A stretch of 64,000 nucleotides of DNA, from the NCBI RefSeq assembly GCF_036588685.1, contig NW_026963290.1, forward strand, positions 5,332,001-5,396,000, read 5' to 3'. This document shows, piece after piece, positions 17,690 to 39,389 of the stretch. Source of the stretch: Mytilus trossulus (Eukaryota). The translations under genes were made by a program, and so were the position numbers. How positions within the stretch are numbered: position 1 is the first letter of the stretch; each line of letters opens with the position of its first letter. The notes under the pieces are model-generated. The model was not told the origin of the DNA. It saw only the letters and a program-made list of their open reading frames with translations, and searched no databases.

Positions 17690-19012
17690 TAGTCTCTAGA
17701 GTTTTACTCTGTCAATGGTCAGACATGAGGGTTCTGTACTGACTATAGGGATCTAACTCTCATGACTCACATGGATGGTTACCTTTTGTACCTGATAGAT
17801 ACGTTTTCCATTTTTTTTTTTTAGAATAAATGGTTTAGTACGATCGACCTGGATTCCGGTTATTGTTTAGTTGATGAAAACGAAACCATTTTTACTTACC
17901 ATTATTGATTGTTTTAAATAAAAATAATGCATTTTAACCTGTGAAATGTACCTTGTTGTTTTTGAAAGAATTATCAAAACTGTTTTTAAATGCTATCGAT
18001 TGGAAGATGTCTATGATATTTAGACGATGTAAAAAGTTTTGAACTTTCTTGTGAAAAGGGCCTAAGAAAATGAAGATTTTGTTTTCGAAAGATTTAGGCA
18101 ATATCAAAAAAATGAGAGGTGGTATGATTGCCAAATTGACAATTATACACCAAATGAAGTGGATGCAAAAAGTAGTTAACAGCTGAATAATAGTCATAAA
18201 TTGATTTAACTAAAACCAATCTGGGTCACAAATCAAGGGAAACACATCAACTATAAGAGGGAAAGAACGGAACAACAAAGACACTGAACTACTACAAAAA
18301 ACAAACTCCATCGATCATAGAAGCGGGCTATTTGATAACAACTTCCATATTCCTGACTTGGTACAGAACATATTTTATGAAACAAACCAAAACACAGATC
18401 GCACATGGTATGGTATGTATTCATCCCTCATCCCTAACAACAAAGAAGGCACTAGTAACAGATCTGAGAGTCTGAGTACAGATCTAGAGTACTCGCAGTT
18501 CCTGTGTCGGTTAACATCACTGAAAAATTATGAGCACCTGAGATCACACCTACTTTTTGGTGGGTTTGTGTTGTTTATTCTTTGGTTTTCCATGTTGTGT
18601 CATGTGTACTATTGTTTGTCTGTTTGTCTTTTTCATTTTAGCAACGGCGTGGTCAATTTGTTTTAGATTTATGAGTTTGACTGTCCCTTTGGTATATTTC
18701 GTTCCTCTTTTAAGGACTTGTAAACATTTGATTTGTTCAAAGTAGGTTCCTTTGCGTAAATTTCAGCAGTTTATTTATAGAATTCTTGTTATTTAACGAA
18801 AAATATCATTAAGTTAACGGTAATTGTTGTTGAATTTATCAATTAAATGTATATTTGAAATAAAAACCCAAGAAGTGCTTTTAGTTCAACATTAAGTCTT
18901 ATTTTTGTTAAATCTTTTTCAGATGAAGGCATTGCTTGTGGTCAATCTTTATCGAATCCTTGTATGGTTGGCGATGCCTTAAATATATAATTTTCATCCC
19001 CTTTGATTACTT
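17690..19012 (-). repeat. Right arm of the ~1.3-kb inverted repeat, abutting the tRNA array
   Basis: Reverse complement of 15556-16864 with scattered substitutions and small indels. Confidence 0.9.
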
Positions 19013-19318
19013 TTTCAAGTGACAATAACCTTAGGCGCTAAAACTTTGTTCACCTTTAGTACCCCAGAGCCAAACCTTTGGTAGAAATTATTCATGTTCG
19101 ACTTCTTGTTATCCGCTATTCAACAATTTATTTTTAAATAAAGCAGTCCCAATAGATAGTGTTTAAACCATTCAACTGATTGCTTAGTAGGCTTACAAAC
19201 CAGTGTAACTAATCGAGATGTACTTTATGAAAGTTCTTAATGCTATCAGCAATAGGGGGGATGAATTAAGAGTAAGTGTATTTGAGGCTAACTAGAAGAA
19301 ACTGATAGCAAAAAAAGT

Positions 19319-19392
19319 AGCCTTCAGAGAGAGTCGAACTCTCGACCTCCAGTTTACTAGACTGGCGCTCTAACCAACTGAGCTATGAAGGC
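19319..19392 (-). tRNA. trnT: tRNA-Thr(AGT)
   Basis: GCCTTCA TA GCTC AGTTGGTTA GAGC G CCAGT CT-AGT-AA ACTGG AGGTC GAGAG TTCGACT CTCTC TGAAGGC T: perfect cloverleaf, U73, T7 terminator 2 nt downstream. Confidence 0.97.
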
Positions 19393-19420
19393 TCCATGAT
19401 AAAAGATTTGAAATATTCAA

Positions 19421-19433
19421 TATTTATATCTAG
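19421..19433 (-). promoter_or_regulatory. TATA-like upstream motif of tRNA-Thr (CTAGATATAAATA), repeated in the array units
   Basis: Located -41..-29 from the tRNA 5' end; near-identical motif lies upstream of the tRNA-like element. Confidence 0.55.
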
Positions 19434-19749
19434 ACTTACTCTTCCGTGATCTATGGACAAGTATATACAGGTGCACACTAATAGGCAGAGAAAAACTAGC
19501 ATTGTAGACATTATGCAGTTGCTTCTGTTTCATTTTATCTAAGTATGAGACGACACGGTCGATTTTATGTTGATACATCGATTTGTCTTCCTATTGTGTT
19601 ATCTTATCATATTTACTATTTCTGTTTCTAGGAATATATACTGATAGATGAATTTACAAAACACAATTTCCAATTACCTGCAATTTGTGATGACGCTAAA
19701 TAACCATAACGAAACACTTTGCATGTTTTTTGACGGTCGAATGTTACCG

Positions 19750-19762
19750 CTAGATATAAGTA
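19750..19762 (+). promoter_or_regulatory. TATA-like upstream motif of the tRNA-like element (CTAGATATAAGTA)
   Basis: Located -40..-28 from inferred start 19790; 12/13 identical to the tRNA-Thr upstream motif. Confidence 0.55.
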
Positions 19763-19789
19763 TACAATTCTGATGTCTGAAACTATTCT

Positions 19790-19865
19790 GTCGCCATAGC
19801 TCAGTCGGTTGACGGCCAGACAGGGAATACCGAGGACCGCAGTTCGAATCTCACAATGGGTTTTT
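19790..19865 (+). ncRNA. tRNA-derived Pol III element (pseudo-tRNA or candidate ncRNA); first of 36 copies, starting 471 bp after the low coordinate of the tRNA in uninterrupted units
   Basis: A box TAGCTCAGTCGG, B box GTTCGAATC at tRNA spacing, T5 terminator; colinear with tRNA-Thr (about 48/74 identities by hand) but stems do not pair. Confidence 0.7.
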
Positions 19866-20274
19866 GAATTTGAGAGCGATATTTTTCTCATTGAACTCAA
19901 TGTTTTTGACCTGTGCTATAAGCCAGATCAAACGTTCAATTCACATTTCTGAATTTGCCCGTATAGATTTTCAAGTGACAATAACCGTAGGCGCTAAAAC
20001 TTTGTTCACCTTTAGTACCCCCGAGCCAAACCTTTGGTAGAAATTATTCATGTTCGACTTCTTGTTATCCGCTATTCAACAATTTATTTTCAAATAAAGC
20101 AGTCCCAATAGATAGTGTTTAAACCATTCAACTGATTGCTTAGTAGGCTTACAAACCAGTGTAACTAATCGAGATGTACTTTATGAAAGTTCTTAATGCT
20201 ATCAGCAATAGGGGGGATGAATTGACAGTAAGTGTATTTGAGGCTAACTAGAAGAAACTGATAGCAAAAAAAGT

Positions 20275-20348
20275 AGCCTTCAGAGAGAGTCGAACTCTCG
20301 ACCTCCAGTTTACTAGACTGGCGCTCTAACCAACTGAGCTATGAAGGC
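20275..20348 (-). tRNA. trnT: tRNA-Thr(AGT)
   Basis: Identical array copy. Confidence 0.96.
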
Positions 20349-21230
20349 TCCATGATAAACGATTTGAAATATTCAATATTTATATCTAGACTTACTCTTC
20401 CCTGATCTATGGGCAAGTATATACAGGTGCACACTAATAGGCAGAGAAAAACTAGCATTGTAGACATTATGCAGTTGCTTCTGTTTCATTTTACCTAAGT
20501 ATGAGACGACACGGTCGATTTTATGTTGATACATCGATTTGTCTTCCTATTGTGTTATCTTATCATATTTACTATTTCTGTTTCTAGGAATATATACTGA
20601 TAGATGAATTTACAAAACAGAATTTCCAATTACCTGCAATTTGTGATGACGCTAAATAACCATAACGAAACACTTTGCATGTTTTTTGACGGTCGAATGT
20701 TACCTCTAGATATAAGTATACAATTCTGATGTCTGAAACTATTCTGTCGCCATAGCTCAGTCGGTTGACGGCCAGACAGGGAATACCGAGGACCGCAGTT
20801 CGAATCTCACAATGGGTTTTTGAATTTGAGAGCGATATTTTTCTCATTGAACTCAATGTTTTTGACCTGTGCTATAAGCCAGATCAAACGTTCAATTCAC
20901 ATTTCTGAATTTGCCCGTATAGATTTTCAAGTGACAATAACCGTAGGCGCTAAAACTTTGTTCACCTTTAGTACCCCCGAGCCAAACCTTTGGTAGAAAT
21001 TATTCATGTTCGACTTCTTGTTATCCGCTATTCAACAATTTATTTTCAAATAAAGCAGTCCCAATAGATAGTGTTTAAACCATTCAACTGATTGCTTAGT
21101 AGGCTTACAAACCAGTGTAACTAATCGAGATGTACTTTATGAAAGTTCTTAATGCTATCAGCAATAGGGGGGATGAATTGACAGTAAGTGTATTTGAGGC
21201 TAACTAGAAGAAACTGATAGCAAAAAAAGT

Positions 21231-21304
21231 AGCCTTCAGAGAGAGTCGAACTCTCGACCTCCAGTTTACTAGACTGGCGCTCTAACCAACTGAGCTATGA
21301 AGGC
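21231..21304 (-). tRNA. trnT: tRNA-Thr(AGT)
   Basis: Identical array copy. Confidence 0.96.
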
Positions 21305-22186
21305 TCCATGATAAACGATTGGAAATATTCAATATTTATATCTAGACTTACTCTTCCCTGATCTATGGGCAAGTATATACAGGTGCACACTAATAGGCAG
21401 AGAAAAACTAGCATTGTAGACATTATGCAGTTGCTTCTGTTTCATTTTACCTAAGTATGAGACGACACGGTCGATTTTATGTTGATACATCGATTTGTCT
21501 TCCTATTGTGTTATCTTATCATATTTACTATTTCTGTTTCTAGGAATATATACTGATAGATGAATTTACAAAACACAATTTCCAATTACCTGCAATTTGT
21601 GATGACGCTAAATAACCATAACGAAACACTTTGCATGTTTTTTGACGGTCGAATGTTACCGCTAGATATAAGTATACAATTCTGATGTCTGAAACTATTC
21701 TGTCGCCATAGCTCAGTCGGTTGACGGCCAGACAGGGAATACCGAGGACCGCAGTTCGAATCTCACAATGGGTTTTTGAATTTGAGAGCGATATTTTTCT
21801 CATTGAACTCAATGTTTTTGACCTGTGCTATAAGCCAGATCAAACGTTCAATTCACATTTCTGAATTTGCCCGTATAGATTTTCAAGTGACAATAACCGT
21901 AGGCGCTAAAACTTTGTTCACCTTTAGTACCCCCGAGCCAAACCTTTGGTAGAAATTATTCATGTTCGACTTCTTGTTATCCGCTATTCAACAATTTATT
22001 TTCAAATAAAGCAGTCCCAATAGATAGTGTTTAAACCATTCAACTGATTGCTTAGTAGGCTTACAAACCAGTGTAACTAATCGAGATGTACTTTATGAAA
22101 GTTCTTAATGCTATCAGCAATAGGGGGGATGAATTGACAGTAAGTGTATTTGAGGCTAACTAGAAGAAACTGATAGCAAAAAAAGT

Positions 22187-22260
22187 AGCCTTCAGAGAGA
22201 GTCGAACTCTCGACCTCCAGTTTACTAGACTGGCGCTCTAACCAACTGAGCTATGAAGGC
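22187..22260 (-). tRNA. trnT: tRNA-Thr(AGT)
   Basis: Identical array copy. Confidence 0.96.
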
Positions 22261-23142
22261 TCCATGATAAATGATTTGAAATATTCAATATTTATATCTA
22301 GACTTACTCTTCCGTGATCTATGGGCAAGTATATACAGGTGCACACTAATAGGCAGAGAAAAACTAGCATTGTAGACATTATGCAGTTGCTTCTGTTTCA
22401 TTTTACCTAAGTATGAGACGACACGGTCGATTTTATGTTGATACATCGATTTGTCTTCCTATTGTGTTATCTTATCATATTTACTATTTCTGTTTCTAGG
22501 AATATATACTGATAGATGAATTTACAAAACAGAATTTCCAATTACCTGCAATTTGTGATGACGCTAAATAACCATAACGAAACACTTTGCATGTTTTTTG
22601 ACGGTCGAATGTTACCGCTAAATATAAGTATACAATTCTGATGTCTGAAACTATTCTGTCGCCATAGCTCAGTCGGTTGACGGCCAGACAGGGAATACCG
22701 AGGACCGCAGTTCGAATCTCACAATGGGTTTTTGAATTTGAGAGCGATATTTTTCTCATTGAACTCAATGTTTTTGACCTGTGCTATAAGCCAGATCAAA
22801 CGTTCAATTCACATTTCTGAATTTGCCCGTATAGATTTTCAAGTGACAATAACCGTAGGCGCTAAAACTTTGTTCACCTTTAGTACCCCCGAGCCAAACC
22901 TTTGGTAGAAATTATTCATGTTCGACTTCTTGTTATCCGCTATTCAACAATTTATTTTCAAATAAAGCAGTCCCAATAGATAGTGTTTAAACCATTCAAC
23001 TGATTGCTTAGTAGGCTTACAAACCAGTGTAACTAATCGAGATGTACTTTATGAAAGTTCTTAATGCTATCAGCAATAGGGGGGATGAATTGACAGTAAG
23101 TGTATTTGAGGCTAACTAGAAGAAACTGATAGCAAAAAAAGT

Positions 23143-23216
23143 AGCCTTCAGAGAGAGTCGAACTCTCGACCTCCAGTTTACTAGACTGGCGCTCTAACCA
23201 ACTGAGCTATGAAGGC
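23143..23216 (-). tRNA. trnT: tRNA-Thr(AGT)
   Basis: Identical array copy. Confidence 0.96.
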
Positions 23217-24098
23217 TCCATGATAAATGATTTGAAATATTCAATATTTATATCTAGACTTACTCTTCCGTGATCTATGGGCAAGTATATACAGGTGCAC
23301 ACTAATAGGCAGAGAAAAACTAGCATTGTAGACATTATGCAGTTGCTTCTGTTTCATTTTACCTAAGTATGAGACGACACGGTCGATTTTATGTTGATAC
23401 ATCGATTTGTCTTCCTATTGTGTTATCTTATCATATTTACTATTTCTGTTTCTAGGAATATATACTGATAGATGAATTTACAAAACACAATTTCCAATTA
23501 CCTGCAATTTGTGATGACGCTAAATAACCATAACGAAACACTTTGCATGTTTTTTGACGGTCGAATGTTACCGCTAGATATAAGTATACAATTCTGATGT
23601 GTGAAACTATTCTGTCGCCATAGCTCAGTCGGTTGACGGCCAGACAGGGAATACCGAGGACCGCAGTTCGAATCTCACAATGGGTTTTTGAATTTGAGAG
23701 CGATATTTTTCTCATTGAACTCAATGTTTTTGACCTGTGCTATAAGCCAGATCAAACGTTCAATTCACATTTCTGAATTTGCCCGTATAGATTTTCAAGT
23801 GACAATAACCGTAGGCGCTAAAACTTTGTTCACCTTTAGTACCCCCGAGCCAAACCTTTGGTAGAAATTATTCATGTTCGACTTCTTGTTATCCGCTATT
23901 CAACAATTTATTTTCAAATAAAGCAGTCCCAATAGATAGTGTTTAAACCATTCAACTGATTGCTTAGTAGGCTTACAAACCAGTGTAACTAATCGAGATG
24001 TACTTTATGAAAGTTCTTAATGCTATCAGCAATAGGGGGGATGAATTGACAGTAAGTGTATTTGAGGCTAACTAGAAGAAACTGATAGCAAAAAAAGT

Positions 24099-24172
24099 AG
24101 CCTTCAGAGAGAGTCGAACTCTCGACCTCCAGTTTACTAGACTGGCGCTCTAACCAACTGAGCTATGAAGGC
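24099..24172 (-). tRNA. trnT: tRNA-Thr(AGT); upstream TATA motif split by a Helentron-type insertion
   Basis: Identical array copy; insertion begins 33 bp upstream. Confidence 0.95.
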
Positions 24173-24204
24173 TCCATGATAAATGATTTGAAATATTCAA
24201 TATT

Positions 24205-25143
24205 TAGGTCTTTCCACTTTTCCGTGGAAAGACCTATTGAATTTGTTCTGATTATTATTTTTTTTTTTTTTTTTTTTCTTCCGCCTAATTTTTTTTCTTG
24301 CGTAGTATTGATGTTTCAAAAGATGTCGCTTAGATATTTGGAATATGATATCGTATAGTTTATACGCTTTAAAAATTTACAACAACATAACAAAAAACTT
24401 TACGTTGTAAGAGTTATCTCCCCAAACACTGTTTCTCTTGTGGCCACTACTCCTTCGTAACCGTAAAGGATTATGACAAATTTATTTTACCAAATTGCTC
24501 GTTACGTCTTAAAGATTAGGGTATTCATTTGGACCGAAGCTTTACGGAGACTCCATATGAGAGTTATTCCCCCTTTTTCATTTGATTCAAGTGATATGCA
24601 TTTCTAACTAGTAAACCATAAGTGATAGAGACCTAGGGTCCTCAGATTTGAGGTCCTTGGTCCAAAAAAATTAAAATGAGGTCAAGGTCAAAGGTCAAGG
24701 TCATATTCTAAATTTTGATTTTGGCTTATTTTCACTTATTTTCAAATACGTTATGACATATCGACAAATAATTTTTCATAAATTGTTAGTTGCGACATCT
24801 CCTTACTTGTATATTCTGGTTGAAAGGGTGCGCAGACAATAAATGGGAATTTTTGCCCATCTTACATTTAGAATAACGCGTCAAGTGATATTACTCATTA
24901 ACCAAACATATTAAAGACCTAGGGTCTTTTGATTTAAGGTCCTTGGTTTGTGAACTTAAAATTGAGGTCAAGGTCATAGGTTAAAGGACGTTCTAGATTT
25001 TGACCCTTGCTTTAAATTCATATTAATACATCCTAAAGCCATAGGAACTAACATTTTAAACTGATTTTTCATATTTCAATATCAAAATAGAACTTTACTA
25101 GTGGAAAGACCTTCAATTGTTCTCTGAACAATTGGTTTTTAAT
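24205..25143 (+). mobile_element. 939-bp non-autonomous Helentron (HINE/DINE-1-like) element
   Basis: Inserted at T|T with no TSD (caatatt|tatatctag); 5' hairpin TAGGTCTTTCCAC/GTGGAAAGACCTA; 3' subTIR GTGGAAAGACCT (25101-25112) followed by palindrome CAATTGTTC-tct-GAACAATTG and a T-run. Confidence 0.85.
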
Positions 25144-26050
25144 TATATCTAGACTTACTCTTCCGTGATCTATGGGCAAGTATATACAGGTGCACACTAA
25201 TAGGCAGAGAAAAACTAGCATTGTAGACATTATGCAGTTGCTTCTGTTTCATTTTACCTAAGTATGAGACGACACGGTCGATTTTATGTTGATACATCGA
25301 TTTGTCTTCCTATTGTGTTATCTTATCATATTTACTATTTCTGTTTCTAGGAATATATACTGATAGATGAATTTACAAAACACAATTTCCAATTACCTGC
25401 AATTTGTGATGACGCTAAATAACCATAACGAAATGCTTTGCATGTTTTTTGACGGTCGAATGTTACCGCTAGATATAAGTATACAATTCTGATGTCTGAA
25501 ACTATTCTGTCGCCATAGCTCAGTCGGTTGACGGCCAGACAGGGAATACCGAGGACCGCAGTTCGAATCTCACAATGGGTTTTTGAATTTGAGAGCGATA
25601 TTTTTCTCATTGAACTCAATGTTTTTGACCTGTGCTATAAGCCAGATCAAACGTTCAATTCACATTTCTGAATTTGCCCGTATAGATTTTCAAGTGACAA
25701 TAACCGTAGGCGCTAAAACTTTGTTCACCTTTAGTACCCCCGAGCCAAACCTTTGGTAGAAATTATTCATGTTCGACTTCTTGTTATCCGCTATTCAACA
25801 ATTTATTTTCAAATAAAGCAGTCCCAATAGATAGTGTTTAAACCATTCAACTGATTGCTTAGTAGGCTTACAAACCAGTGTAACTAATCGAGATGTACTT
25901 TATGAAAGTTCTTAATGCTATCAGCAATAGGGGGGATGAATTGACAGTAAGTGTATTTGAGGCTAACTAGAAGAAACTGATAGCAAAAAAAGTAGCCTTC
26001 AGAGAGAGTCGAACTCTCGACCTCCAGTTTACTAGACTGGCGCTCTAACC

Positions 26051-27418
26051 GCTTATAAGATTTTCATAAACTCTCTTCTCACTACACTCGAAACCTATCG
26101 CTTAGGTTCTCATATTGGCTCAATCTACGTAGGAATTCCGACAGTCGCAGATGATGTCACCTTAGTTTCAAACTGTCCATACGAAATACAGTCTATGTTA
26201 GATTTACAAACTTTTCATGCTAATAAATTTCGTTATCTTATTAGTAGCCAAAAATCATGTGTATTAAACTATAGATGTGCTGACTCTTTCGACTGGTCTA
26301 TTAATGGTGAAATTTTGGATACTCCGGAAAACGCAGTTCATCTCGGTATTAAACGTGATAAACTTTCCCGTTTAGGCACTAAAGAAGTTGTCCCAGGTCG
26401 CATTCAACTAGCCAGACAGACTGTCTACTCACTGATGGGTGCTGGACTTTATGGACTAAATGGAGTCAACCCTAAGGTTTCACTTCATCTTATCCGCTGC
26501 TACGTGATTCCCAGGCTTTTATATGGACTTGAGGTCATACTGCTTTCAAAAACAGACATTAGTAATATTACAATATATTTTGTGAAACTTTTAAAACGTA
26601 TTCAACATTTACCGGACCGTACAGCAAATGCTGCTGTTCTACTATTAATTGGACAAATTCCTATTGAAGCAGAAATCCACAAAAGAATCCTTGGTATTTT
26701 TAGAAACATTATTGATAATGATAACTCTGTCGAACGTGACTTAGCATTCCGTCAACTTGCAATGAAAACCGAGTCATCAAACAGCTGGTTTCGTAAAGTA
26801 GTTACAATTACAGAATTATATGATCTGCCGTCACCTCATGATCTACTTGTCAACCCTCCTTCAAAGTCAAAATGGAAAAAACTGGTTAACTCCTTAGTAA
26901 ACTATTACTGGATAACTAAACTAAAATCTGAAGCGTCAGAAAAATCATCTTTAAACCTTTTAAACTATACTGATGCTGAATTTGGAAGCATTCATTCTAT
27001 TTGGAATACTTGTGGATCTGAACCTTACTCTACCTTACGTGCCTGTATCAAATCTAAGTTAGCATGTAACACTTATACTCTACAATGTGATAAGTCTAAA
27101 TTTAGTAAACGACAAATTAGTGCAATCTGTCCGCTATGTGGAACTGAGGATGAGAATCGGTTACATTTTATCTTGAGATGCAGTAGTTTAGATAATGTGA
27201 GAAACAGTTTTATACAGAGTCTAAAAACTTTTATTAAAGATGTTGTAACTACTAAACTTTATGATGAACTATTTAGTTCCGAAATCAACACTTTACAGTT
27301 AATTATCGACTGCAGTGTATTTCATTTTCTGTCCAGAGGCGATGTTTTTAAAGTGGAATGTATTACTAGAGGACTATGTTTTAAGTTACATCAGGTGCGA
27401 TCGAATTTATTGAGGTAG
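26051..27418 (+). CDS. Partial ORF2: C-terminal half of reverse transcriptase plus CCHC zinc finger
   Basis: Frame open from the first inserted base: AYKIFIN...GIPTVADDVTL...HLGI...YSLMGAGLYGLNGVNP...CPLC-x8-H-x4-C (track ORF 26195-27418). Confidence 0.85.
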   Translation, partial: AYKIFINSLLTTLETYRLGSHIGSIYVGIPTVADDVTLVSNCPYEIQSMLDLQTFHANKFRYLISSQKSCVLNYRCADSFDWSINGEILDTPENAVHLGIKRDKLSRLGTKEVVPGRIQLARQTVYSLMGAGLYGLNGVNPKVSLHLIRCYVIPRLLYGLEVILLSKTDISNITIYFVKLLKRIQHLPDRTANAAVLLLIGQIPIEAEIHKRILGIFRNIIDNDNSVERDLAFRQLAMKTESSNSWFRKVVTITELYDLPSPHDLLVNPPSKSKWKKLVNSLVNYYWITKLKSEASEKSSLNLLNYTDAEFGSIHSIWNTCGSEPYSTLRACIKSKLACNTYTLQCDKSKFSKRQISAICPLCGTEDENRLHFILRCSSLDNVRNSFIQSLKTFIKDVVTTKLYDELFSSEINTLQLIIDCSVFHFLSRGDVFKVECITRGLCFKLHQVRSNLLR

Positions 27419-27718
27419 TACTAATAAATCAATATCAAATAGCTTAATGAATAAGTGTGCAAATGTGACAATTGATAATTTGAAATGGAGCAACGAACTT
27501 TTTAGAGTCCAATGACTTGCGCTCCAGTTTCGGTCATGTATATATTCATGGGATGTATTCATTCTCGTGTGTAAATAGAGGTGGTGGTTAATGTGTATAA
27601 ACAATCAATACTAGTGCATTGGATTAACTGATAATATATATACGTATGATATTCACACTGAAAAGTGGGTCGTCTGATATAGGCGGAACAGTACAGACTA
27701 AAGTAAAGTAAAGTAAAG
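26051..27718 (+). mobile_element. 5'-truncated RTE-X-like non-LTR retrotransposon
   Basis: TSD TCTAACC (26044-26050 / 27719-27725), (TAAAG)4 tail, uninterrupted RT C-terminal frame. Confidence 0.88.
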
Positions 27719-28625
27719 TCTAACCAACTGAGCTATGAAAGCTCCATGATAAATGATTTGAAATATTCAATATTTATATCTAGACTTACTCTTCCGTGAT
27801 CTATGGGCAAGTATATACAGGTGCACACTAATAGGCAGAGAAAAACTAGCATTGTAGACATTATGCAGTTGCTTCTGTTTCATTTTACCTAAGTATGAGA
27901 CGACACGGTCGATTTTATGTTGATACATCGATTTGTCTTCCTATTGTGTTATCTTATCATATTTACTATTTCTGTTTCTAGGAATATATACTGATAGATG
28001 AATTTACAAAACACAATTTCCAATTACCTGCAATTTGTGATGACGCTAAATAACCATAACGAAACACTTTGCATGTTTTTTTAACGGTCGAATGTTACCG
28101 CTAGATATAAGTATACAATTCTGATGTCTGATACTATTCTGTCGCCATAGCTCAGTCGGTTGACGGCCAGACAGGGAATACCGAGGACCGCAGTTCGAAT
28201 CTCACAATGGGTTTTTGAATTTGAGAGCGATATTTTTCTCATTGAACTCAATGTTTTTGACCTGTGCTATAAGCCAGATCAAACGTTCAATTCACATTTC
28301 TGAATTTGCCCGTATAGATTTTCAAGTGACAATAACCGTAGGCGCTAAAACTTTGTTCACCTTTAGTACCCCCGAGCCAAACCTTTGGTAGAAATTATTC
28401 ATGTTCGACTTCTTGTTATCCGCTATTCAACAATTTATTTTCAAATAAAGCAGTCCCAATAGATAGTGTTTAAACCATTCAACTGATTGCTTAGTAGGCT
28501 TACAAACCAGTGTAACTAATCGAGATGTACTTTATGAAAGTTCTTAATGCTATCAGCAATAGGGGGGATGAATTGACAGTAAGTGTATTTGAGGCTAACT
28601 AGAAGAAACTGATAGCAAAAAAAGT

Positions 28626-28699
28626 AGCCTTCAGAGAGAGTCGAACTCTCGACCTCCAGTTTACTAGACTGGCGCTCTAACCAACTGAGCTATGAAGGC
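28626..28699 (-). tRNA. trnT: tRNA-Thr(AGT)
   Basis: Identical array copy. Confidence 0.96.
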
Positions 28700-29797
28700 T
28701 CCATGATAAATGATTTGAAATATTCAATATTTATATCTAGACTTACTCTTCCGTGATCTATGGGCAAGTATATACAGGTGCACACTAATAGGCAGAGAAA
28801 AACTAGCATTGTAGACATTATGCAGTTGCTTCTGTTTCATTTTACCTAAGTATGAGACGACACGGTCGATTTTATGTTGATACATCGATTTGTCTTCCTA
28901 TTGTGTTATCTTATCATATTTACTATTTCTGTTTCTAGGAATATATACTGATAGATGAATTTACAAAACACAATTTCCAATTACCTGCAATTTGTGATGA
29001 CGCTAAATAACCATAACGAAACACTTTGCATGTTTTTTTAACGGTCGAATGTTACCGCTAGATATAAGTATACAATTCTGATGTCTGATACTATTCTGTC
29101 GCCATAGCTCAGTCGGTTGACGGCCAGACAGGGAATACCGAGGACCGCAGTTCGAATCTCACAATGGGTTTTTGAATTTGAGAGCGATATTTTTCTCATT
29201 GAACTCAATGTTTTTGACCTGTGCTATAAGCCAGATCAAACGTTCAATTCACATTTCTGAATTTGCCCGTATAGATTTTCAAGTGACAATAACCGTAGGC
29301 GCTAAAACTTTGTTCACCTTTAGTACCCCCGAGCCAAACCTTTGGTAGAAATTATTCATGTTCGACTTCTTGTTATCCGCTATTCAACAATTTATTTTCA
29401 AATAAAGCAGTCCCAATAGATAGTGTTTAAACCATTCAACTGATTGCTTAGTAGGCTTACAAACCAGTGTAACTAATCGAGATGTACTTTATGAAAGTTC
29501 TTAATGCTATCAGCAATAGGGGGGATGAATTGACAGTAAGTGTATTTGAGGCTAACTAGAAGAAACTGATAGCAAAAAAAGTAGCCTTCAGAGAGAGTCG
29601 AACTCTCGACCTCCAGTTTACTAGACTGGCGCTCTTTTTTTTTTTCTCTTGATAAAATTTTATTCAGATAATACATATAAAAAGAATAATCAGGCTATAC
29701 TCCTGAAAATTCACATTATCACAATATAAGCTTGTAAGATTACAACTTCAATCATATATAATATATTCACAATTAACATCACATGATAATTATCACA

Positions 29798-32700
29798 CTA
29801 GAAATCAATTTGAATTTGATTGTCTCTAATAATTAATACTGGATTATTTTCATTATAATACTTTTCAAATAATTGTAGCGCATTGTTGCGTTTATAATGT
29901 TCATAAGCATAGTTCACATTTTTAACAAGAGTAGACTTAAAGTATTGTTCTATGTCTATAATCTTATTTTCTAACATTGCAATATTTCGTCTTTTTACAA
30001 TACAAAATCTTCTTATTGCTAATACACTATTTACAAAATAGTAATTAATATATTTATTTTGTTTTGTCAAACCAAACATACACATGAACTCAAAACTAAG
30101 GTCATTTATATAACTGCCCGAACTCTTATACAAAATATTGTGTAAAAAATTCTTTACAAAATCATTGAAGCGAGTTAACATCGTACACTCTAAAATCAGG
30201 TGATTTAAATTCTCAGGTAGAGTTGAGCAAATAGGACAAAGTGAGTCCTTTGTAATACGGCATTTAAATAGCCTTTCTTTTGTAAATATAATACGGTGAA
30301 AAACTTTAAATGCCACCTCGCGACAATCGCTTTGTAAAAAAGAAAAATTCATGATTTTCTGGATCTTTCTTAGGTCAAAATCTGCGTACATCAAACGCCA
30401 TCGTGATACAGATTTAGGTTCTCTAGAAAGCTTTGATACAAGCATTCGATAATAAAAATTCGTCGTGGATGGAAGTGAACAAATTTGGACGCCATCTTTA
30501 ATCATGGGTTTTAACATAGGAGTTTTACTAACATGCACATTTGCTTCAACTAGCACTTTATACTCATCAGGTATTGTTTCTAACACATTTCTAACTGCAT
30601 GTAACATTTTATTTTCCGAAACTTCCGGAAATTTTTCTAATACAATCTCTTGAATATAACTTTCTTTCAAGAAACCTGGTTTACATTCATATGCGATATC
30701 TTTTATTTTACATACACCTGCTTCAATAAATGTCTTAAGATATAACATTTTATTACCATTTGTAATATTTGGATTTAGAAAAAGCGGAATATCAAAAACA
30801 TTTTCTGAATTAACTTCAATATCTACATTTTCACAAATACTTTGCCATGACAAAATCAGACTTTGATAAAATTCTGGTAATGCATCTATTTTTCTATTTC
30901 GGAGATCACAGAATAAAATTTCAATTCCAAGATTCATGTTTTCAAACTTAGAAAAGAAATAAAGACAAGTTTGTTTCCATAAAGCACAATAGTTTTCATC
31001 CAACAGTCTACTCAAATATTTTAATCTAAAAGCATACATTTTCTGCATAATATCAGGAAAATTCAATCCTCCGTCAACTACTTTATTGATAATAACCTCA
31101 TATGCTACAAGAGGAGGTTTATTATTCCATAAAAATTCTAAACATTTCTTTTTTATAAGTATGCAATACTTTTCAGGTATATTTACAACCATTAATGTAT
31201 ACCACAGTTTACTCATAAGTAAGGCACTAATAACACTTACTCTTCCATGAAGAGTTAAATGCCTCATTTTCCAAAAATTCAGGAGTTTTGTAATTGATTG
31301 TACTTTACCTTCCCAATTCAATTTTTCACATAATGTTTTATTTTTTCCCACCCATATTCCTAATAACTGTAAGACTTCATCACATTCTTTTATTTTCCAA
31401 ATTTTTAAATCATTTGAACAAATTTTCCCTTTTCCAAGTGCTAAAACTTCTGATTTTTCTTTATTCAATTTTGCACCCGATGCTTTTTCGTACAATTCTA
31501 GTACCCGAAATGTTTCACTAACTGAATTTTTGTCCACTAAGGTCAAAGTTGTATCGTCAGCATGTACAAAAACCTTTTCTTCAACATTTGTATTTGGTAT
31601 TACAACACCTCTAATCTCACAATTTTTCTTAATAGCAATACTCAATGGTTCTGCTAACAAAACATATAACAGAGCCGAAATGGGACACCCCTGTTTGACA
31701 GAGTTTTTCAATCTAAAGTATGGAGTCAAAAATCCATTACATTTAACTGAACTAAAAATGTTGGTGTAAAATATTTTTATCCATTTTTTGAATTTATTAC
31801 CAAATCCAAATTTATCCAAAACTGCAAAAAGATACTCGTGTCCAGCTCTGTCAAAAGCTTTTTCTTGATCTAATTTTAATAAATAACATTCTATATCATC
31901 CATTTCTACTAAATCCATAAAATCCCTAACACTAACAACTGTGTCAGATATATCTTTTCCTAGAATACAACAGCTTTGATTTGGTGAAATAACTTTTGGT
32001 AGTACATACTTAAATCTATTTGCCATTACTCTGGCAAGTATTTTGTAGTCAACATTCAACAAGCTAATTGGCCTAAAGTTTTTCAAATCTGATTGATCAC
32101 CTTTGTTTTTAAAAATTATATTTATATTCCCATATCTCATAGATCTAGATAATTCTTCATTTTCCTCAATACTTTGATAAATATAGAGTAATACATGCTT
32201 TAATTCATTGAAAAAATACAAATAAAATTCTGCAGTTATACCATCTGGTCCAGGTGTTTTCCCTTTTTTCATACCTTTTAAGGATTTTTCAATTTCCTCA
32301 ATACTAATTTCATCTTCACACATTTCTACATCTTCATCATCAATTTTTACATTAACATTATTCAATAATTCATCAACTGAATGCATATCAATACTAACAC
32401 AAGAAAACAAATGTTTATAATAATCATGTATAACATCAAGTAAATCATTTGTTTCTGTAACAATTTTCCCATCACAATCTTTTATTTCACTTATCACATT
32501 CTTATTCTGTCGATACTTTTCTAATTTCAAAAAATATGCAGTATTTCTATCACTTTCTAAAGCCCACTGTGACTTTGATCTTAAAATTGCACCTTGACAT
32601 TTGTACGTTTCAATATCTTCTAATTGCGTTTGCAATTCTAAAAAATGTTCACTGTTTATCTGAATACCATTTGCAGATTTTACTGATAATTCTTGAATTT

Positions 32701-33703
32701 TATTCTGCAATTTATAATATTCCCTGTTTAAATCTTTTTGCTTTTCTTTGCCATAAATTTGGCTTAATCTTTTAATTGTAAATTTTAAATTATCCCACCA
32801 AATTAAGGGATTTGACACATAAAAATCTGACCCAATTTCATTTGCAAATAATCTCTTCATTTTATCAATAAATAACTCATCTTGTAAAAATGAATTATTA
32901 AAAACCCACACACCTGGACCTCTTTCTACATTACAAAAATCTATCTTCATGCTGACGATACTATGATCACTAAAACTAGTATCCTTATAATGAATATTCT
33001 TAATACATGATTTTAAATCTAATGACACTAGAAAATAGTCTATTCTGCTTTGGGTTAAAAACCCTTGTACAACCTGTTTTCTAGAAAAAACTTTTGTATT
33101 AACATTTCTATTTCTCCAAATATCATATAAGTCTTTTTCTTGCATAAAAGTACATAAGGATTTTACAGCCTTATCATTACAATGCATGGTTTTACCACTC
33201 TTATCCAAACTTGATAATGTAGTATTAAAATCTCCAGCAACTAATACATATTTTCCTTTACTAATTTTTTGTTTACACTTTAAGAAAAACTCATATCTTT
33301 CATTTACATTATTTGGTGCATATATATTATAAATGTCAATCAATTTATCATTAATTGTCCCTTTTATATGAATAAATCTTCCATTATCATTTTCCACTTC
33401 TACAAAAATGTTTTTTAATTTCTTACTAACAAGAATAGCAACACCTTGACGGTTATTACCACTATTACTATAAAAAATATCTCCATCCCAAATAGTTTTA
33501 TCTCTTTTAATTCTTTCTACAAACAAATCATTCCAAAATGTTTCTTGTAAACATATAATATCATAAAATCTTTCATTACACAATGAAAAAATACAATTCC
33601 TCTTATTGCTATCACAAAGTCCGTTACAATTAAGACTTATAACATTAAACATAGCCATTACTATATAAAATATATTGAATATTATATAATATTTACAATC
33701 CAT
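29798..33703 (-). CDS. Tx1-like ORF2p: APE endonuclease, reverse transcriptase and C-terminal CCHC (1301 aa, intact)
   Basis: SLNCNGL, LQET, IYAPN, GDFN, SRIDY, SDH (APE); PGPDG, FRPISLLNVDYKIL, LDQEKAFD, QGCPIS, HADD (RT); CPIC-x8-H-x4-C. Confidence 0.95.
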   Translation of the reverse strand: MDCKYYIIFNIFYIVMAMFNVISLNCNGLCDSNKRNCIFSLCNERFYDIICLQETFWNDLFVERIKRDKTIWDGDIFYSNSGNNRQGVAILVSKKLKNIFVEVENDNGRFIHIKGTINDKLIDIYNIYAPNNVNERYEFFLKCKQKISKGKYVLVAGDFNTTLSSLDKSGKTMHCNDKAVKSLCTFMQEKDLYDIWRNRNVNTKVFSRKQVVQGFLTQSRIDYFLVSLDLKSCIKNIHYKDTSFSDHSIVSMKIDFCNVERGPGVWVFNNSFLQDELFIDKMKRLFANEIGSDFYVSNPLIWWDNLKFTIKRLSQIYGKEKQKDLNREYYKLQNKIQELSVKSANGIQINSEHFLELQTQLEDIETYKCQGAILRSKSQWALESDRNTAYFLKLEKYRQNKNVISEIKDCDGKIVTETNDLLDVIHDYYKHLFSCVSIDMHSVDELLNNVNVKIDDEDVEMCEDEISIEEIEKSLKGMKKGKTPGPDGITAEFYLYFFNELKHVLLYIYQSIEENEELSRSMRYGNINIIFKNKGDQSDLKNFRPISLLNVDYKILARVMANRFKYVLPKVISPNQSCCILGKDISDTVVSVRDFMDLVEMDDIECYLLKLDQEKAFDRAGHEYLFAVLDKFGFGNKFKKWIKIFYTNIFSSVKCNGFLTPYFRLKNSVKQGCPISALLYVLLAEPLSIAIKKNCEIRGVVIPNTNVEEKVFVHADDTTLTLVDKNSVSETFRVLELYEKASGAKLNKEKSEVLALGKGKICSNDLKIWKIKECDEVLQLLGIWVGKNKTLCEKLNWEGKVQSITKLLNFWKMRHLTLHGRVSVISALLMSKLWYTLMVVNIPEKYCILIKKKCLEFLWNNKPPLVAYEVIINKVVDGGLNFPDIMQKMYAFRLKYLSRLLDENYCALWKQTCLYFFSKFENMNLGIEILFCDLRNRKIDALPEFYQSLILSWQSICENVDIEVNSENVFDIPLFLNPNITNGNKMLYLKTFIEAGVCKIKDIAYECKPGFLKESYIQEIVLEKFPEVSENKMLHAVRNVLETIPDEYKVLVEANVHVSKTPMLKPMIKDGVQICSLPSTTNFYYRMLVSKLSREPKSVSRWRLMYADFDLRKIQKIMNFSFLQSDCREVAFKVFHRIIFTKERLFKCRITKDSLCPICSTLPENLNHLILECTMLTRFNDFVKNFLHNILYKSSGSYINDLSFEFMCMFGLTKQNKYINYYFVNSVLAIRRFCIVKRRNIAMLENKIIDIEQYFKSTLVKNVNYAYEHYKRNNALQLFEKYYNENNPVLIIRDNQIQIDF

Positions 33704-33705
33704 TT

Positions 33706-35337
33706 TTATTTGTTTCTATTTTTTTTTTGATGTGCCAACATAGCAGCCTTTACATTAACCTTAACTTTCAATGACTTTCGTCTTGCATTTTTTTTAAATA
33801 TATTTTTGCATTTGTCTTCTACACTAGCCCACTCACTTTCTTCATCAGCCAATGGGTCAGTGTCCATACTTATTTCATCTAATTCACCAAATACACCATC
33901 ATCTCCTCCCTGGCTGCATTTTTGTTCCAGAGAGGGGATGTTACTAATTTTCTCATCATTAACATTTGTTTCACATGAAACATTTTCATTCATGATTTCA
34001 TTTGTACTTAACAAAACATTACATTTACTAATATTGCTACTAACAGTTACAATATGTCCTTCTGATATCTGCTCACTGTCTTTAATCGTCATCTCGGTCG
34101 CGATCTTTGTCTTTACACCATTGTCGGTCGCGATCTTTGTCTGCTCACTATTGTCAGTCGCGATCTTTGTCTTTTCACCATTTTCGGACGCGTTATCAAC
34201 GGTATCTGTTACATCATCTGCCATGGCTTCATCAGCGTCTGTATATTCATCATCATCATCTTCATATCCATTACCAATACCATCACCAATTATTCCATCT
34301 CCATTACCATTACCATTATCTTTAACGTCATCTTCATTCCAATCCTCACCATTAGCTTCTATATCATCACACATGATATCACTTGTGTGTACATCTGCAA
34401 CAACTTTTACCACCTTTGACTTTTTCACATCATCACTGGTTCCCTGTTCCGAACTTATGACTGAGGGACCAACATCTGACGTATTCCCACTAATCAAGTC
34501 ATTTTCACTTTCTTTTAATTCTGTATTGTTTTCTTCACTACTGGTGATAATTTCTTGATATTTTCTTTTGTGGTCCGAAACTCTGCCCCAAGGTGTTTTT
34601 CTTTTTCCTTCGGGTATATGACCAAATCCTTCTCCGAAATAACGCTTTCTCGTTAAACAATCGCAATCACTGTATGGCCTTAGGCAACTCTTACATTTAT
34701 TCTCTAAACAGTTTTTACTAATATGTCCTTGTTGACCACATTTAAAACATTTAAATTCTGGACAATCTTTGTATAAATGTTCAGCACTATAACAACCCGA
34801 ACAAACTTTGACCTGGTCATTATGAATAACTCTATAATATGCTGTTTCCTTCCCGCTAACTGTAAATTTCATAGAATACGGTATTGAGGCAAGTGTAGGT
34901 GGTAATTTTACTTTAAAAACCCTAGTACCATCATATACATTCGATCTACTGCTCATTTTTCTTTTCCTAATGTCAGTTACTATTTCAACACCCATTCTAT
35001 CAAATCTATCAATTATTTCTTCATCTGTTACGTACATGCTCATATTGAAAATTGACACAATTCTAAATACTGATACTAGTTCATTTACACTAATGGATTT
35101 ACCTTGTATAAATAAACCGTCTCCTGATATTTCTCCTACATTTCTCCTTTACCGCATTACTACTTCATAATTGTTATCATTCTTGGGAACACACGCTAAC
35201 ACGGATCCAACACCACATTTCTTTTCAATTTCATCTATCACTAATTCTGGGGTAATCACTTTAGTACTGCCAACATTCACACGAACAGTTTGTTCCTTTG
35301 AATAATTGTCATCCAAAGGGTACGTTTTGTCACCCAT
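33706..35337 (-). CDS. Tx1-like ORF1p (gag-like, CCHC zinc knuckles), interrupted by one in-frame TAA at 35149-35151
   Basis: Track ORFs 35149-35349 and 33706-35058 are in the same frame with 30 sense codons between; knuckles CSGCYSAEHLYKDC and CFKCGQQGHISKNC; acidic low-complexity C-terminus. Confidence 0.88.
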
Positions 35338-36447
35338 CCTGGGTGACAAAACAAAGTCTTTTTCAACAAAAAAGTTGAAAAAATCAAACGTAATTAAGGT
35401 ATATTATCACATTCTGACACAAAATATACAAATTCACATATACGATGACTTGGAAAAACACAGTTTTTGAATTAGATTGACTCTCTCGATATAAACACCT
35501 GTTTACTCTTTCATAGGTCAACCGGAAGTCCAGACTGGCGCTCTAACCAACTGAGCTATGAAGGCTCCATGATAAATTATTTGAAATATTCAATATTTAT
35601 ATCTAGACTTACTCTTCCGTGATCTATGGGCAAGTATATACAGGTGCACACTAATAGGCAGAGAAAAACTAGCATTGTAGACATTATGCAGTTGCTTCTG
35701 TTTCATTTTACCTAAGTATGAGACGACACGGTCGATTTTATGTTGATACATCGATTTGTCTTCCTATTGTGTTATCTTATCATATTTACTATTTCTGTTT
35801 CTAGGAATATATACTGATAGATGAATTTACAAAACAGAATTTCCAATTACCTGCAATTTGTGATGACGCTAAATAACCATAACGAAACACTTTGCATGTT
35901 TTTTGACGGTCGAATGTTACCGCTAGATATAAGTATACAATTCTGATGTCTGAAACTATTCTGTCGCCATAGCTCAGTCGGTTGACGGCCAGACAGGGAA
36001 TACCGAGGACCGCAGTTCGAATCTCACAATGGGTTTTTGAATTTGAGAGCGATATTTTTCTCATTGAACTCAATGTTTTTGACCTGTGCTATAAGCCAGA
36101 TCAAACGTTCAATTCACATTTCTGAATTTGCCCGTATAGATTTTCAAGTGACAATAACCGTAGGCGCTAAAACTTTGTTCACCTTTAGTACCCCCGAGCC
36201 AAACCTTTGGTAGAAATTATTCATGTTCGACTTCTTGTTATCCGCTATTCAACAATTTATTTTCAAATAAAGCAGTCCCAATAGATAGTGTTTAAACCAT
36301 TCAACTGATTGCTTAGTAGGCTTACAAACCAGTGTAACTAATCGAGATGTACTTTATGAAAGTTCTTAATGCTATCAGCAATAGGGGGGATGAATTGACA
36401 GTAAGTGTATTTGAGGCTAACTAGAAGAAACTGATAGCAAAAAAAGT

Positions 36448-36521
36448 AGCCTTCAGAGAGAGTCGAACTCTCGACCTCCAGTTTACTAGACTGGCGCTCT
36501 AACCAACTGAGCTATGAAGGC
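36448..36521 (-). tRNA. trnT: tRNA-Thr(AGT)
   Basis: Identical array copy. Confidence 0.96.
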
Positions 36522-37403
36522 TCCATGATAAATGATTTGAAATATTCAATATTTATATCTAGACTTACTCTTCCGTGATCTATGGGCAAGTATATACAGG
36601 TGCACACTAATAGGCAGAGAAAAACTAGCATTGTAGACATTATGCAGTTGCTTCTGTTTCATTTTACCTAAGTATGAGACGACACGGTCGATTTTATGTT
36701 GATACATCGATTTGTCTTCCTATTGTGTTATCTTATCATATTTACTATTTCTGTTTCTAGGAATATATACTGATAGATGAATTTACAAAACAGAATTTCC
36801 AATTACCTGCAATTTGTGATGACGCTAAATAACCATAACGAAACACTTTGCATGTTTTTTGACGGTCGAATGTTACCGCTAAATATAAGTATACAATTCT
36901 GATGTCTGAAACTATTCTGTCGCCATAGCTCAGTCGGTTGACGGCCAGACAGGGAATACCGAGGACCGCAGTTCGAATCTCACAATGGGTTTTTGAATTT
37001 GAGAGCGATATTTTTCTCATTGAACTCAATGTTTTTGACCTGTGCTATAAGCCAGATCAAACGTTCAATTCACATTTCTGAATTTGCCCGTATAGATTTT
37101 CAAGTGACAATAACCGTAGGCGCTAAAACTTTGTTCACCTTTAGTACCCCCGAGCCAAACCTTTGGTAGAAATTATTCATGTTCGACTTCTTGTTATCCG
37201 CTATTCAACAATTTATTTTCAAATAAAGCAGTCCCAATAGATAGTGTTTAAACCATTCAACTGATTGCTTAGTAGGCTTACAAACCAGTGTAACTAATCG
37301 AGATGTACTTTATGAAAGTTCTTAATGCTATCAGCAATAGGGGGGATGAATTGACAGTAAGTGTATTTGAGGCTAACTAGAAGAAACTGATAGCAAAAAA
37401 AGT

Positions 37404-37477
37404 AGCCTTCAGAGAGAGTCGAACTCTCGACCTCCAGTTTACTAGACTGGCGCTCTAACCAACTGAGCTATGAAGGC
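37404..37477 (-). tRNA. trnT: tRNA-Thr(AGT)
   Basis: Identical array copy. Confidence 0.96.
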
Positions 37478-38359
37478 TCCATGATAAATGATTTGAAATA
37501 TTCAATATTTATATCTAGACTTACTCTTCCGTGATCTATGGGCAAGTATATACAGGTGCACACTAATAGGCAGAGAAAAACTAGCATTGTAGACATTATG
37601 CAGTTGCTTCTGTTTCATTTTACCTAAGTATGAGACGACACGGTCGATTTTATGTTGATACATCGATTTGTCTTCCTATTGTGTTATCTTATCATATTTA
37701 CTATTTCTGTTTCTAGGAATATATACTGATAGATGAATTTACAAAACACAATTTCCAATTACCTGCAATTTGTGATGACGCTAAATAACCATAACGAAAC
37801 ACTTTGCATGTTTTTTGACGGTCGAATGTTACCGCTAGATATAAGTATACAATTCTGATGTGTGAAACTATTCTGTCGCCATAGCTCAGTCGGTTGACGG
37901 CCAGACAGGGAATACCGAGGACCGCAGTTCGAATCTCACAATGGGTTTTTGAATTTGAGAGCGATATTTTTCTCATTGAACTCAATGTTTTTGACCTGTG
38001 CTATAAGCCAGATCAAACGTTCAATTCACATTTCTGAATTTGCCCGTATAGATTTTCAAGTGACAATAACCGTAGGCGCTAAAACTTTGTTCACCTTTAG
38101 TACCCCCGAGCCAAACCTTTGGTAGAAATTATTCATGTTCGACTTCTTGTTATCCGCTATTCAACAATTTATTTTCAAATAAAGCAGTCCCAATAGATAG
38201 TGTTTAAACCATTCAACTGATTGCTTAGTAGGCTTACAAACCAGTGTAACTAATCGAGATGTACTTTATGAAAGTTCTTAATGCTATCAGCAATAGGGGG
38301 GATGAATTGACAGTAAGTGTATTTGAGGCTAACTAGAAGAAACTGATAGCAAAAAAAGT

Positions 38360-38433
38360 AGCCTTCAGAGAGAGTCGAACTCTCGACCTCCAGTTTACTA
38401 GACTGGCGCTCTAACCAACTGAGCTATGAAGGC
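38360..38433 (-). tRNA. trnT: tRNA-Thr(AGT)
   Basis: Identical array copy. Confidence 0.96.
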
Positions 38434-39315: not shown

Positions 39316-39389
39316 AGCCTTCAGAGAGAGTCGAACTCTCGACCTCCAGTTTACTAGACTGGCGCTCTAACCAACTGAGCTATGAAGGC
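39316..39389 (-). tRNA. trnT: tRNA-Thr(AGT)
   Basis: Identical array copy. Confidence 0.96.

What the first reader, a model, noticed from the sequence alone, without database searches (positions are those of the whole stretch)
19750..19865. Divergent tRNA-derived partner gene keeps all Pol III signals but no cloverleaf
Seen: GTCGCCATAGCTCAGTCGGTTGACGGCCAGACAGGGAATACCGAGGACCGCAGTTCGAATCTCACAATGGGTTTTT aligns to tRNA-Thr with one gap (about 65% by hand). A box, B box, terminator and a 13-bp upstream motif (CTAGATATAArTA at -40 vs -41) are kept, while acceptor, anticodon and T stems no longer pair. Inference: an old inverted duplicate retained as a Pol III ncRNA, a TFIIIC-binding or insulator site, or a decoy target for tRNA-specific retrotransposons, since it keeps the GGTT|GAnnGCCAG target and has taken an insertion. 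Concerted evolution alone can explain within-array identity.
Basis: partly seen in the sequence, partly recalled or inferred. Interest (0 to 1): 0.7.

Follow-up and report, generated by a model that had tools for sequence, protein, structure and literature searches.

The report
tRNA relic kept in tRNA array
Each repeat of a roughly 90-copy threonine-tRNA gene array, likely from a mussel, carries a second, ruined tRNA gene that can no longer fold but keeps its promoter and stop signals and barely differs in a related animal, so it likely survives as a docking site for the tRNA-transcription machinery rather than for its RNA.

Summary
Confirmed. The 956-bp unit of the only tRNA-Thr(AGT) array found in the genome holds a divergent 76-nt tRNA relic (90 copies, 81 uninterrupted). 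It has a consensus A box, B box, T5 and a TATA-like motif at -40. Its cloverleaf is lost (9 of 21 pairs), and it has no Rfam match. It is Thr-derived but equally close to Thr(TGT) and Thr(AGT), so 'inverted duplicate of its neighbour' is not shown. It fills the second-gene slot seen in 5 of 5 other arrays. New evidence: contigs of a relative differ at 48 of 644 spacer sites but at 0-1 of 116 sites here (P about 0.001). The low divergence extends 120 bp downstream, so a conversion or introgression tract remains a rival. tRNA-targeting retroelements hit it three times, but they hit many tRNAs, so a decoy role is unsupported. Transcription and occupancy are untested. Best reading (0.42): a retained, ZOD1-like Pol III factor site. 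Rivals are a neutral hitch-hiker (0.30) and a functional ncRNA (0.20).

The parts
19790..19865 (+). tRNA-Thr-family relic ('partner'), 76 nt including terminator; first of 90 copies in the array (81 uninterrupted)
19750..19762 (+). Upstream TATA-like motif CTAGATATAAGTA at -40 (predicted TFIIIB site)
19797..19808 (+). A box
19842..19850 (+). B box
19861..19865 (+). T5 Pol III terminator (T6 in one relative contig)
19810..19811 (+). Retroelement cut site GGTT|GACGG; used by three independent poly(A) insertions in other copies of the array
19866..19986 (+). Downstream stretch that also shows low divergence from the relative (3 of 121); role unexplained
19319..19392 (-). Intact tRNA-Thr(AGT), divergent neighbour; this array is the only locus found for it in the genome
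19421..19433 (-). Matching upstream motif of tRNA-Thr(AGT) at -41
19012..64000 (.). 956-bp tandem array (continues to about 59 kb beyond the window's end; G000:C15 about 5,351,000-5,455,000)
44603..46255 (+). 1.65-kb poly(A) element inserted in a relic copy, 15-bp target duplication
49139..50791 (+). Identical duplicate of the 1.65-kb insertion
29636..35531 (-). Full-length L1/Tx1-type retrotransposon (endonuclease + RT + zinc knuckle ORF1) inserted at the matching D-loop site of a tRNA-Thr copy

Best explanation
The element is an old tRNA-Thr-family gene that lost its cloverleaf but kept a complete type-2 Pol III promoter, and it is likely still bound by TFIIIC/TFIIIB and likely kept for that binding rather than for its RNA. 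Shown: Thr ancestry, selective retention of boxes, TATA-like motif and terminator, loss of stems without compensation, position in the second-gene slot of the unit, low divergence from a relative. Inferred: factor occupancy; weak transcription of an unstable RNA of about 80 nt ending in the T run; a benefit to the array (two back-to-back Pol III complexes per unit keeping chromatin open or phased, or supporting the neighbouring tRNA-Thr(AGT), for which this is the only locus found). Concerted evolution then keeps all copies alike.
For: Boxes 19/21 vs non-box 33/52 matches to mussel Thr tRNAs (P 0.017); stems 9/21 pairs, no stable fold. A dispersed orphan copy on C3 has decayed about equally in spacer and relic parts (6/66 after removing 4 sites where it shares the relative's allele, vs 4/67), so the sequence is not an intrinsic cold spot. 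Within the array, terminal copies dropped: body 1 variable site/76 (tRNA 2/74), upstream 4/40 (tRNA upstream 4/45), spacer 19/599; raised flank variation is the pattern reported for transcribed tRNA genes (PMC6130373, abstract), but here P is only 0.05-0.07. All 5 other arrays examined have two tRNA genes per unit, and the Thr(TGT)/Cys unit has a divergent gap of 396 bp vs 397 here. The conserved block is wider than the RNA (upstream 40 bp, downstream 121 bp), which fits a DNA-level role better than an RNA-level one.
Against: No transcript or occupancy data. The four runs share derived differences, so they are one comparison, not four. Low divergence continues 121 bp past the terminator (3/121, P 0.018), and some 116-bp window with <=1 difference arises somewhere in the unit in 19% of random placements, so a conversion/introgression tract or chance is not excluded. 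Body variation within the array is not significantly below spacer (P 0.72). 9 of 90 copies are interrupted or truncated, and interrupted copies have been amplified (6 with a 222-bp stub, 2 with the 1.65-kb element); 5 of 90 carry a change in the upstream motif. The 397-bp gap is far longer than the about 104 bp needed in the trypanosomatid case (PMC4950102). No distant mussel could be reached.
Confidence: 0.42

Rival explanations
1. Neutral hitch-hiker: a dead tRNA gene copied along with the essential tRNA-Thr(AGT) by concerted evolution; boxes survive by chance or because they decayed little, and the similarity to the relative is a gene-conversion or introgression tract about 240 bp long.
For: Low divergence runs 19750-19986, beyond the gene; scan statistic 0.19 for a 116-bp window; one effective species comparison; interrupted copies tolerated and amplified; no structure; absent beside the same tRNA in three records of other animals.
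Against: Box retention against about 37% change elsewhere in the body (P 0.017) plus a kept TATA-like motif and terminator at the right distances; the region was named before the comparison (P about 1e-3); a 237-bp window with <=4 differences arises in only 1% of random placements, which argues against chance but not against a tract. The orphan differs from the array at 4/67 relic sites vs 10/66 spacer sites (P 0.07).
Confidence: 0.3
2. A functional small Pol III RNA (about 76-80 nt) exapted from tRNA-Thr, like rodent 4.5SI or BC1 in origin (recalled), acting through sequence or as a La/protein-bound RNA rather than through a cloverleaf.
For: Non-box body positions are also unchanged in the relative (0-1 of 53, expected 4; P 0.016-0.087); body nearly invariant within the array (1/76); clean terminator; about 81 intact copies.
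Against: No stable or significant fold (z +1.36, -0.23, -0.55); the closing stem of a 101-nt read-through form is broken by the relative's change at 19878; no Rfam family; conservation is not confined to the RNA; RNA-library contigs cover spacer too and show no transcript.
Confidence: 0.2
3. Kept as a decoy target that draws tRNA-specific retrotransposons away from the real tRNA gene.
For: Three independent poly(A) insertions at GGTT|GACGG vs one at the matching tRNA site.
Against: 3 vs 1 is not significant (P 0.31) and insertions in the tRNA may be purged; both families checked insert in many tRNA types; with 86 intact tRNA copies the gain from a decoy is small (inference).
Confidence: 0.05
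4. Head of a SINE or solo LTR of a Helenus-type element captured in the unit.
For: An 18-letter A-box match to one dispersed tRNA-like repeat copy (L046; 42/73 overall); bivalve Helenus LTRs can carry tRNA-Thr-like parts (PMC10886601, passages).
Against: Not dispersed: 90 of 94 genome matches lie in the array, one is an orphan piece of the unit itself, three are the unrelated repeat; terminator directly after the tRNA-length body, no tail, flanks unlike L045-L047.
Confidence: 0.03

Closest known systems
ZOD1 and the YGR033C-region tRNA relics of Saccharomyces cerevisiae (PMC5356446, PMC5911963; passages seen)
   Same: Ancient tRNA gene that no longer is a tRNA; the reviews report full Pol III machinery occupancy, weak transcription, and that Ty3 still inserts at ZOD1. 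Here: kept boxes, lost cloverleaf, still hit by tRNA-targeting retroelements.
   Different: ZOD1 is single-copy with measured occupancy; this is a 90-copy member of a homogenised array in an animal, Thr-derived, occupancy untested.
tRNA-like elements upstream of trypanosomatid U2/U4 snRNA genes (PMC4950102; abstract and passages seen)
   Same: Divergently oriented, A and B boxes kept, no cloverleaf, transcribed at low level there; acts through DNA on the neighbour.
   Different: There the neighbour lacks its own full promoter and box A lies about 104 bp away; here the neighbour is a complete tRNA gene 397 bp away.
ETC (extra TFIIIC) sites of yeast (PMC5356446, passage seen)
   Same: Retained TFIIIC-type signal without a tRNA product.
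   Different: ETC sites are occupied by TFIIIC only; this element keeps A box, TATA-like motif and terminator, i.e. a whole transcription unit.
Vault RNA (Rfam RF00006)
   Same: Type-2 promoter, short Pol III unit with upstream TATA-like element.
   Different: No match to the model; real vault-like genes lie elsewhere in this genome with longer 3' parts.
Two-gene tRNA tandem units of this genome, e.g. Thr(TGT)/Cys(GCA) 921-bp unit on C3
   Same: Two Pol III genes per unit, divergent gap 396 vs 397 bp.
   Different: Both genes are intact there; spacer middles show no homology.

Membership tests
Functional tRNA gene (RF00005) | Cloverleaf with paired acceptor, D, anticodon and T stems | tested here: not met
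   9 of 21 pairs; no ARAGORN or Rfam call
Functional tRNA gene (RF00005) | Internal A and B boxes, downstream T run | tested here: met
ZOD1-like retained tRNA relic | Descent from a tRNA gene with loss of tRNA structure | tested here: met
ZOD1-like retained tRNA relic | Promoter elements conserved across species above neutral background | tested here: inconclusive
   0-1/116 vs 48/644 in one close relative, but the block extends downstream
ZOD1-like retained tRNA relic | Occupancy by TFIIIC, TFIIIB and Pol III; weak transcript | not testable with these tools
   only contigs were served; no raw or small-RNA reads
Trypanosomatid-type extragenic tRNA-like promoter | Divergent orientation with box A about 104 bp from the neighbour's start | tested here: not met
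   divergent, but 397 bp between 5' ends
Trypanosomatid-type extragenic tRNA-like promoter | Neighbour's transcription depends on its boxes | not testable with these tools
   needs reporter mutagenesis
Vault RNA (RF00006) | Match to the covariance model; terminal panhandle, about 20 nt or more between B box and terminator | tested here: not met
   no hit; 10 nt between B box and T run; 19 over-cut-off hits elsewhere
SINE / Helenus TRIM | Dispersed copies with body or tail, or LTR ends, and target duplications | tested here: not met
   confined to one array plus one orphan piece; target duplications around the relic itself were not searched for separately

The most novel reading that the evidence does not exclude
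Mussel tRNA arrays need two back-to-back Pol III complexes about 397 bp apart per unit, so that when the second tRNA gene lost its product it was kept as a purely architectural gene (or became a new lineage-specific Pol III RNA): an 80-copy, selected, structure-less tRNA relic in an animal, giving a natural test of whether tRNA genes are maintained for factor binding apart from their RNA.
Probability: 0.3. Interest if true: 0.65.

Novelty: new variant of a known kind. Interest (0 to 1): 0.38.

Why it matters
Extra-transcriptional roles of tRNA genes (insulation, chromatin organisation) are hard to separate from tRNA supply. A relic that keeps the whole promoter but makes no tRNA, sits one-to-one beside a real tRNA gene in about 90 identical units, and exists in natural interrupted and duplicated versions would separate the two. 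If it is instead a stable RNA, it is an unannotated multicopy Pol III RNA that tRNA finders and Rfam miss. If neutral, it is a clean example of a pseudogene carried by concerted evolution.

Tried and rejected
Vault RNA: rejected. Evidence of transcription from the 6-kb Tx1-type copy whose 56-bp duplication ends at the relic's T run: rejected, because three other full-length copies begin with GGTTTTT (microhomology) and their 5' junctions also lie away from the cut site. RNA-library contigs as evidence of expression: rejected; X17 is one contig over the whole unit including spacer, and X19/X20 were found by the words they share, which favours the conserved part; X20 ends in the T run but extends 150 nt upstream. 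A 101-nt read-through RNA with a closing stem: z -0.23 and the relative's change at 19878 breaks a central pair. Common ancestry of this unit with the Thr(TGT)/Cys unit: whole-spacer z about 2-3 appears in both orientations and vanishes for the middle. First within-array count (5/76 in the body) was inflated by the truncated last copy; recounted after dropping 3 of 100 aligned pieces (left partial, first full unit, right truncated). Distant relatives: 3 metagenome loci with the same tRNA core carry no relic; viral and prokaryote collections gave 0. Literature: 10 searches listed no paper on this element or on a mussel tRNA-Thr array; the library lacks most subscription journals and Repbase, and no supplements were read, so repeat catalogues may already hold the Tx1-type families.

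Full report
Setting. The window lies at G000:C15:5,332,001-5,396,000 of a 1.3-Gb genome; the label 'mussel' comes from the scan's earlier notes and was not tested. From 19012 onward the window is a tandem array with a 956-bp unit, copies about 99-100% alike. ARAGORN finds 32 tRNA-Thr(AGT) genes in the window. A 29-letter pattern with up to 3 mismatches finds 87 matches in the genome, all in this array, so it is the only locus found for this tRNA.

Observation. The 76-mer is at 19790-19865 (+), divergent from the tRNA with 397 bp between 5' ends. It matches the array tRNA at 47 of 74 columns (score 59; 5000 shuffles 6.6+/-6.4, max 33). A box, B box and T5 are at tRNA spacing; 0 of 50000 shuffles give such a set. 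In tRNA register only 9 of 21 stem pairs form, against 21 of 21 in the tRNA; a shifted 4-bp acceptor remnant remains. It folds no better than shuffles and has no Rfam hit at E<=10. The array holds 90 relic 5' halves, 81 uninterrupted, and 86 intact tRNAs. Of 94 genome matches to its 5' 20-mer (<=2 mismatches), 90 are in the array, one is an orphan piece of the unit on C3, and three belong to an unrelated dispersed repeat.

Ancestry. Among the tRNA types collected (Thr AGT/TGT/CGT, Cys, Ile, Gln, Arg, Asp, Gly; not the full set) the Thr genes fit best: Thr(TGT) 46/73, Thr(AGT) 47/74, Thr(CGT) 44/73, another animal's Thr(AGT) 50/75, Cys 39/73. The upstream 45 nt resemble Thr(TGT) most (z 4.0), then Thr(AGT) (2.7) and one Ile (2.6), of 18 upstream regions compared. 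CTAGATATAA at this distance from an A box occurs as a gene feature only in this array among the first 100 of 182 matches listed, but TATA-like motifs precede several other tRNA and vault genes. So it is a Thr-family relic of uncertain isoacceptor, not demonstrably a duplicate of its neighbour. All five other arrays seen carry two tRNA genes per unit (Thr(CGT)+Gly, Ile+Ile, Gln+Gln, Arg+Asp, Thr(TGT)+Cys); the last has a divergent gap of 396 bp. Spacer homology between the two units is not supported.

Selection over long time. Against the three mussel Thr tRNAs together, 19 of 21 box positions match but only 33 of 52 others (Fisher P 0.017; 20/21 vs 34/52 with two outside Thr genes, P 0.006), with no compensation in stems: the promoter was kept while the RNA shape decayed.

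Selection over short time. Contigs in four public runs hold the same unit from a relative. From X17's record totals by subtraction, the spacer differs at 51 of 644 sites, 48 after removing three private variants of the window's first unit (7.5%); one search listed only 40 of 71 difference rows, so the totals rest on its per-record counts and assume none in the tRNA. Against this: the four runs share derived changes and count as one comparison; the next 121 bp are also quiet (3; P 0.018); and some 116-bp window that quiet arises in 19% of random placements, a 237-bp one in 1%. A conversion or introgression tract would look the same. The C3 orphan shares the relative's allele at four spacer sites and has otherwise decayed about equally in spacer and relic (6/66 vs 4/67), so the relic is not an intrinsic cold spot. 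Within the array (97 of 100 pieces; terminal ones dropped) variable sites are 1/76 in the body, 2/74 in the tRNA, 19/599 in spacer, 4/40 and 4/45 just upstream of relic and tRNA (P 0.05 and 0.07; body P 0.72). Raised flank variation is reported as a mark of transcribed tRNA genes (PMC6130373, abstract read); here it is a hint only.

Retroelements. Three independent poly(A) insertions use GGTT|GACGG in the relic: a 1.65-kb element (2 identical copies), a 6-kb Tx1-type LINE, and a 222-bp stub (6 copies); one Tx1-type LINE uses the matching tRNA site and another element a site 7 bp away ('Tx1' is my recalled label for the endonuclease-RT-zinc-knuckle layout). Of the 7 other near-identical copies of the 6-kb family, 5 sit in intact tRNA genes (Thr(CGT), Ile, Gln, Arg twice as a duplicate), one in a degenerate tRNA-like sequence and one elsewhere. 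Of 12 other loci of the 1.65-kb family looked at (14 loci from 49 matches), 7 are in tRNA D loops by eye. The relic is thus treated like any tRNA gene; 3 vs 1 is not a preference (P 0.31). Whether targeting needs bound factors, as for Ty3 at ZOD1 or TRE5-A (PMC5911963, passages), or only the sequence is unknown. The 56-bp duplication ending at the T run is explained by microhomology and is no sign of transcription.

Mechanism. Most likely (0.42) TFIIIC binds the kept boxes and loads TFIIIB on the -40 motif, giving two back-to-back complexes per unit; any RNA is a short-lived by-product; selection acts on the site. Ancestry, box retention, loss of structure and low divergence are shown; occupancy, transcription and benefit are inferred. 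Rivals: neutral hitch-hiker with a conversion tract (0.30), functional RNA (0.20; non-box body also unchanged, 0-1 of 53, P 0.016-0.087), decoy (0.05), SINE/Helenus remnant (0.03).

Comparison. It works most like yeast ZOD1 (PMC5356446, PMC5911963; passages) and resembles the divergent tRNA-like elements of trypanosomatid snRNA genes (PMC4950102; abstract and passages), but fails the latter's 104-bp spacing, and occupancy could not be tested. It is not a tRNA, vault RNA or dispersed SINE. PMC4494074, PMC10294476 and PMC10886601 were seen as passages only; all other papers as search listings. Ten searches listed no description of this element; coverage is limited and no supplements were read.

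Verdict. Real, modestly surprising, function unproven: a new variant (multicopy, animal, array-embedded) of a known kind of retained tRNA relic. Interest 0.38.

Noticed in passing
G000 C1:5.66-6.02 Mb, C2:51.6-51.7 Mb, C4:60.0 and 62.7-62.8 Mb, C6, C14 (L034-L043): 19 Rfam Vault (RF00006) matches above the gathering score, clustered, with conserved ends, variable middles, T-run terminators and a shared upstream CAGGTA...TATA motif in most of the ten read: a likely family of mollusc vault RNA genes.
   Followed up: partly
L012 (G000:C15 about 5,407,460-5,413,435); L063, L065, L067, L069: A young, intact 6-kb Tx1-type LINE family (copies 98-100% alike) inserting in the D loop of several tRNA types; full-length copies have 5' junctions tens to hundreds of bases from the cut site instead of short target duplications.
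   Followed up: partly
window 44603-46255 and 49139-50791; ORF 44785-45735: 1.65-kb poly(A) element with a 316-aa frame with no Pfam match, sharing its extreme 3' end with the 6-kb LINE and often inserted in tRNA D loops: likely a non-autonomous partner.
   Followed up: partly
window 54390-55089 and 55695-56394: 349-bp internal duplications give two units with two complete relic copies each (54595/54944 and 55900/56249).
   Followed up: no
window 26051-27718: Non-LTR-like fragment with a (TAAAG)n tail inserted in a tRNA-Thr copy, 7-bp duplication; 460-aa frame without Pfam match.
   Followed up: no
window 24227-25139: 0.9-kb element with inverted-repeat ends (GGTCTTTCCAC / GTGGAAAGACC) inserted in the upstream motif of a tRNA-Thr copy.
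   Followed up: no
L066:6960-7850 (G000:C1 near 112,337,000-112,337,850): Another degenerate tRNA-like sequence, solitary, starting ATCGCCGTAGCTC and hit by the same LINE family at its D loop.
   Followed up: no
L070-L072 (G000:C3:46.31-46.51 Mb): 921-bp Thr(TGT)/Cys(GCA) array with inverted blocks; divergent gap 396 bp, one base from the gap here.
   Followed up: partly
window 19012-19393: The partial copy at the array's left edge keeps alleles shared with the relative (at unit sites equal to 19987, 20224, 20226), i.e. escapes homogenisation.
   Followed up: partly
   Followed up: no
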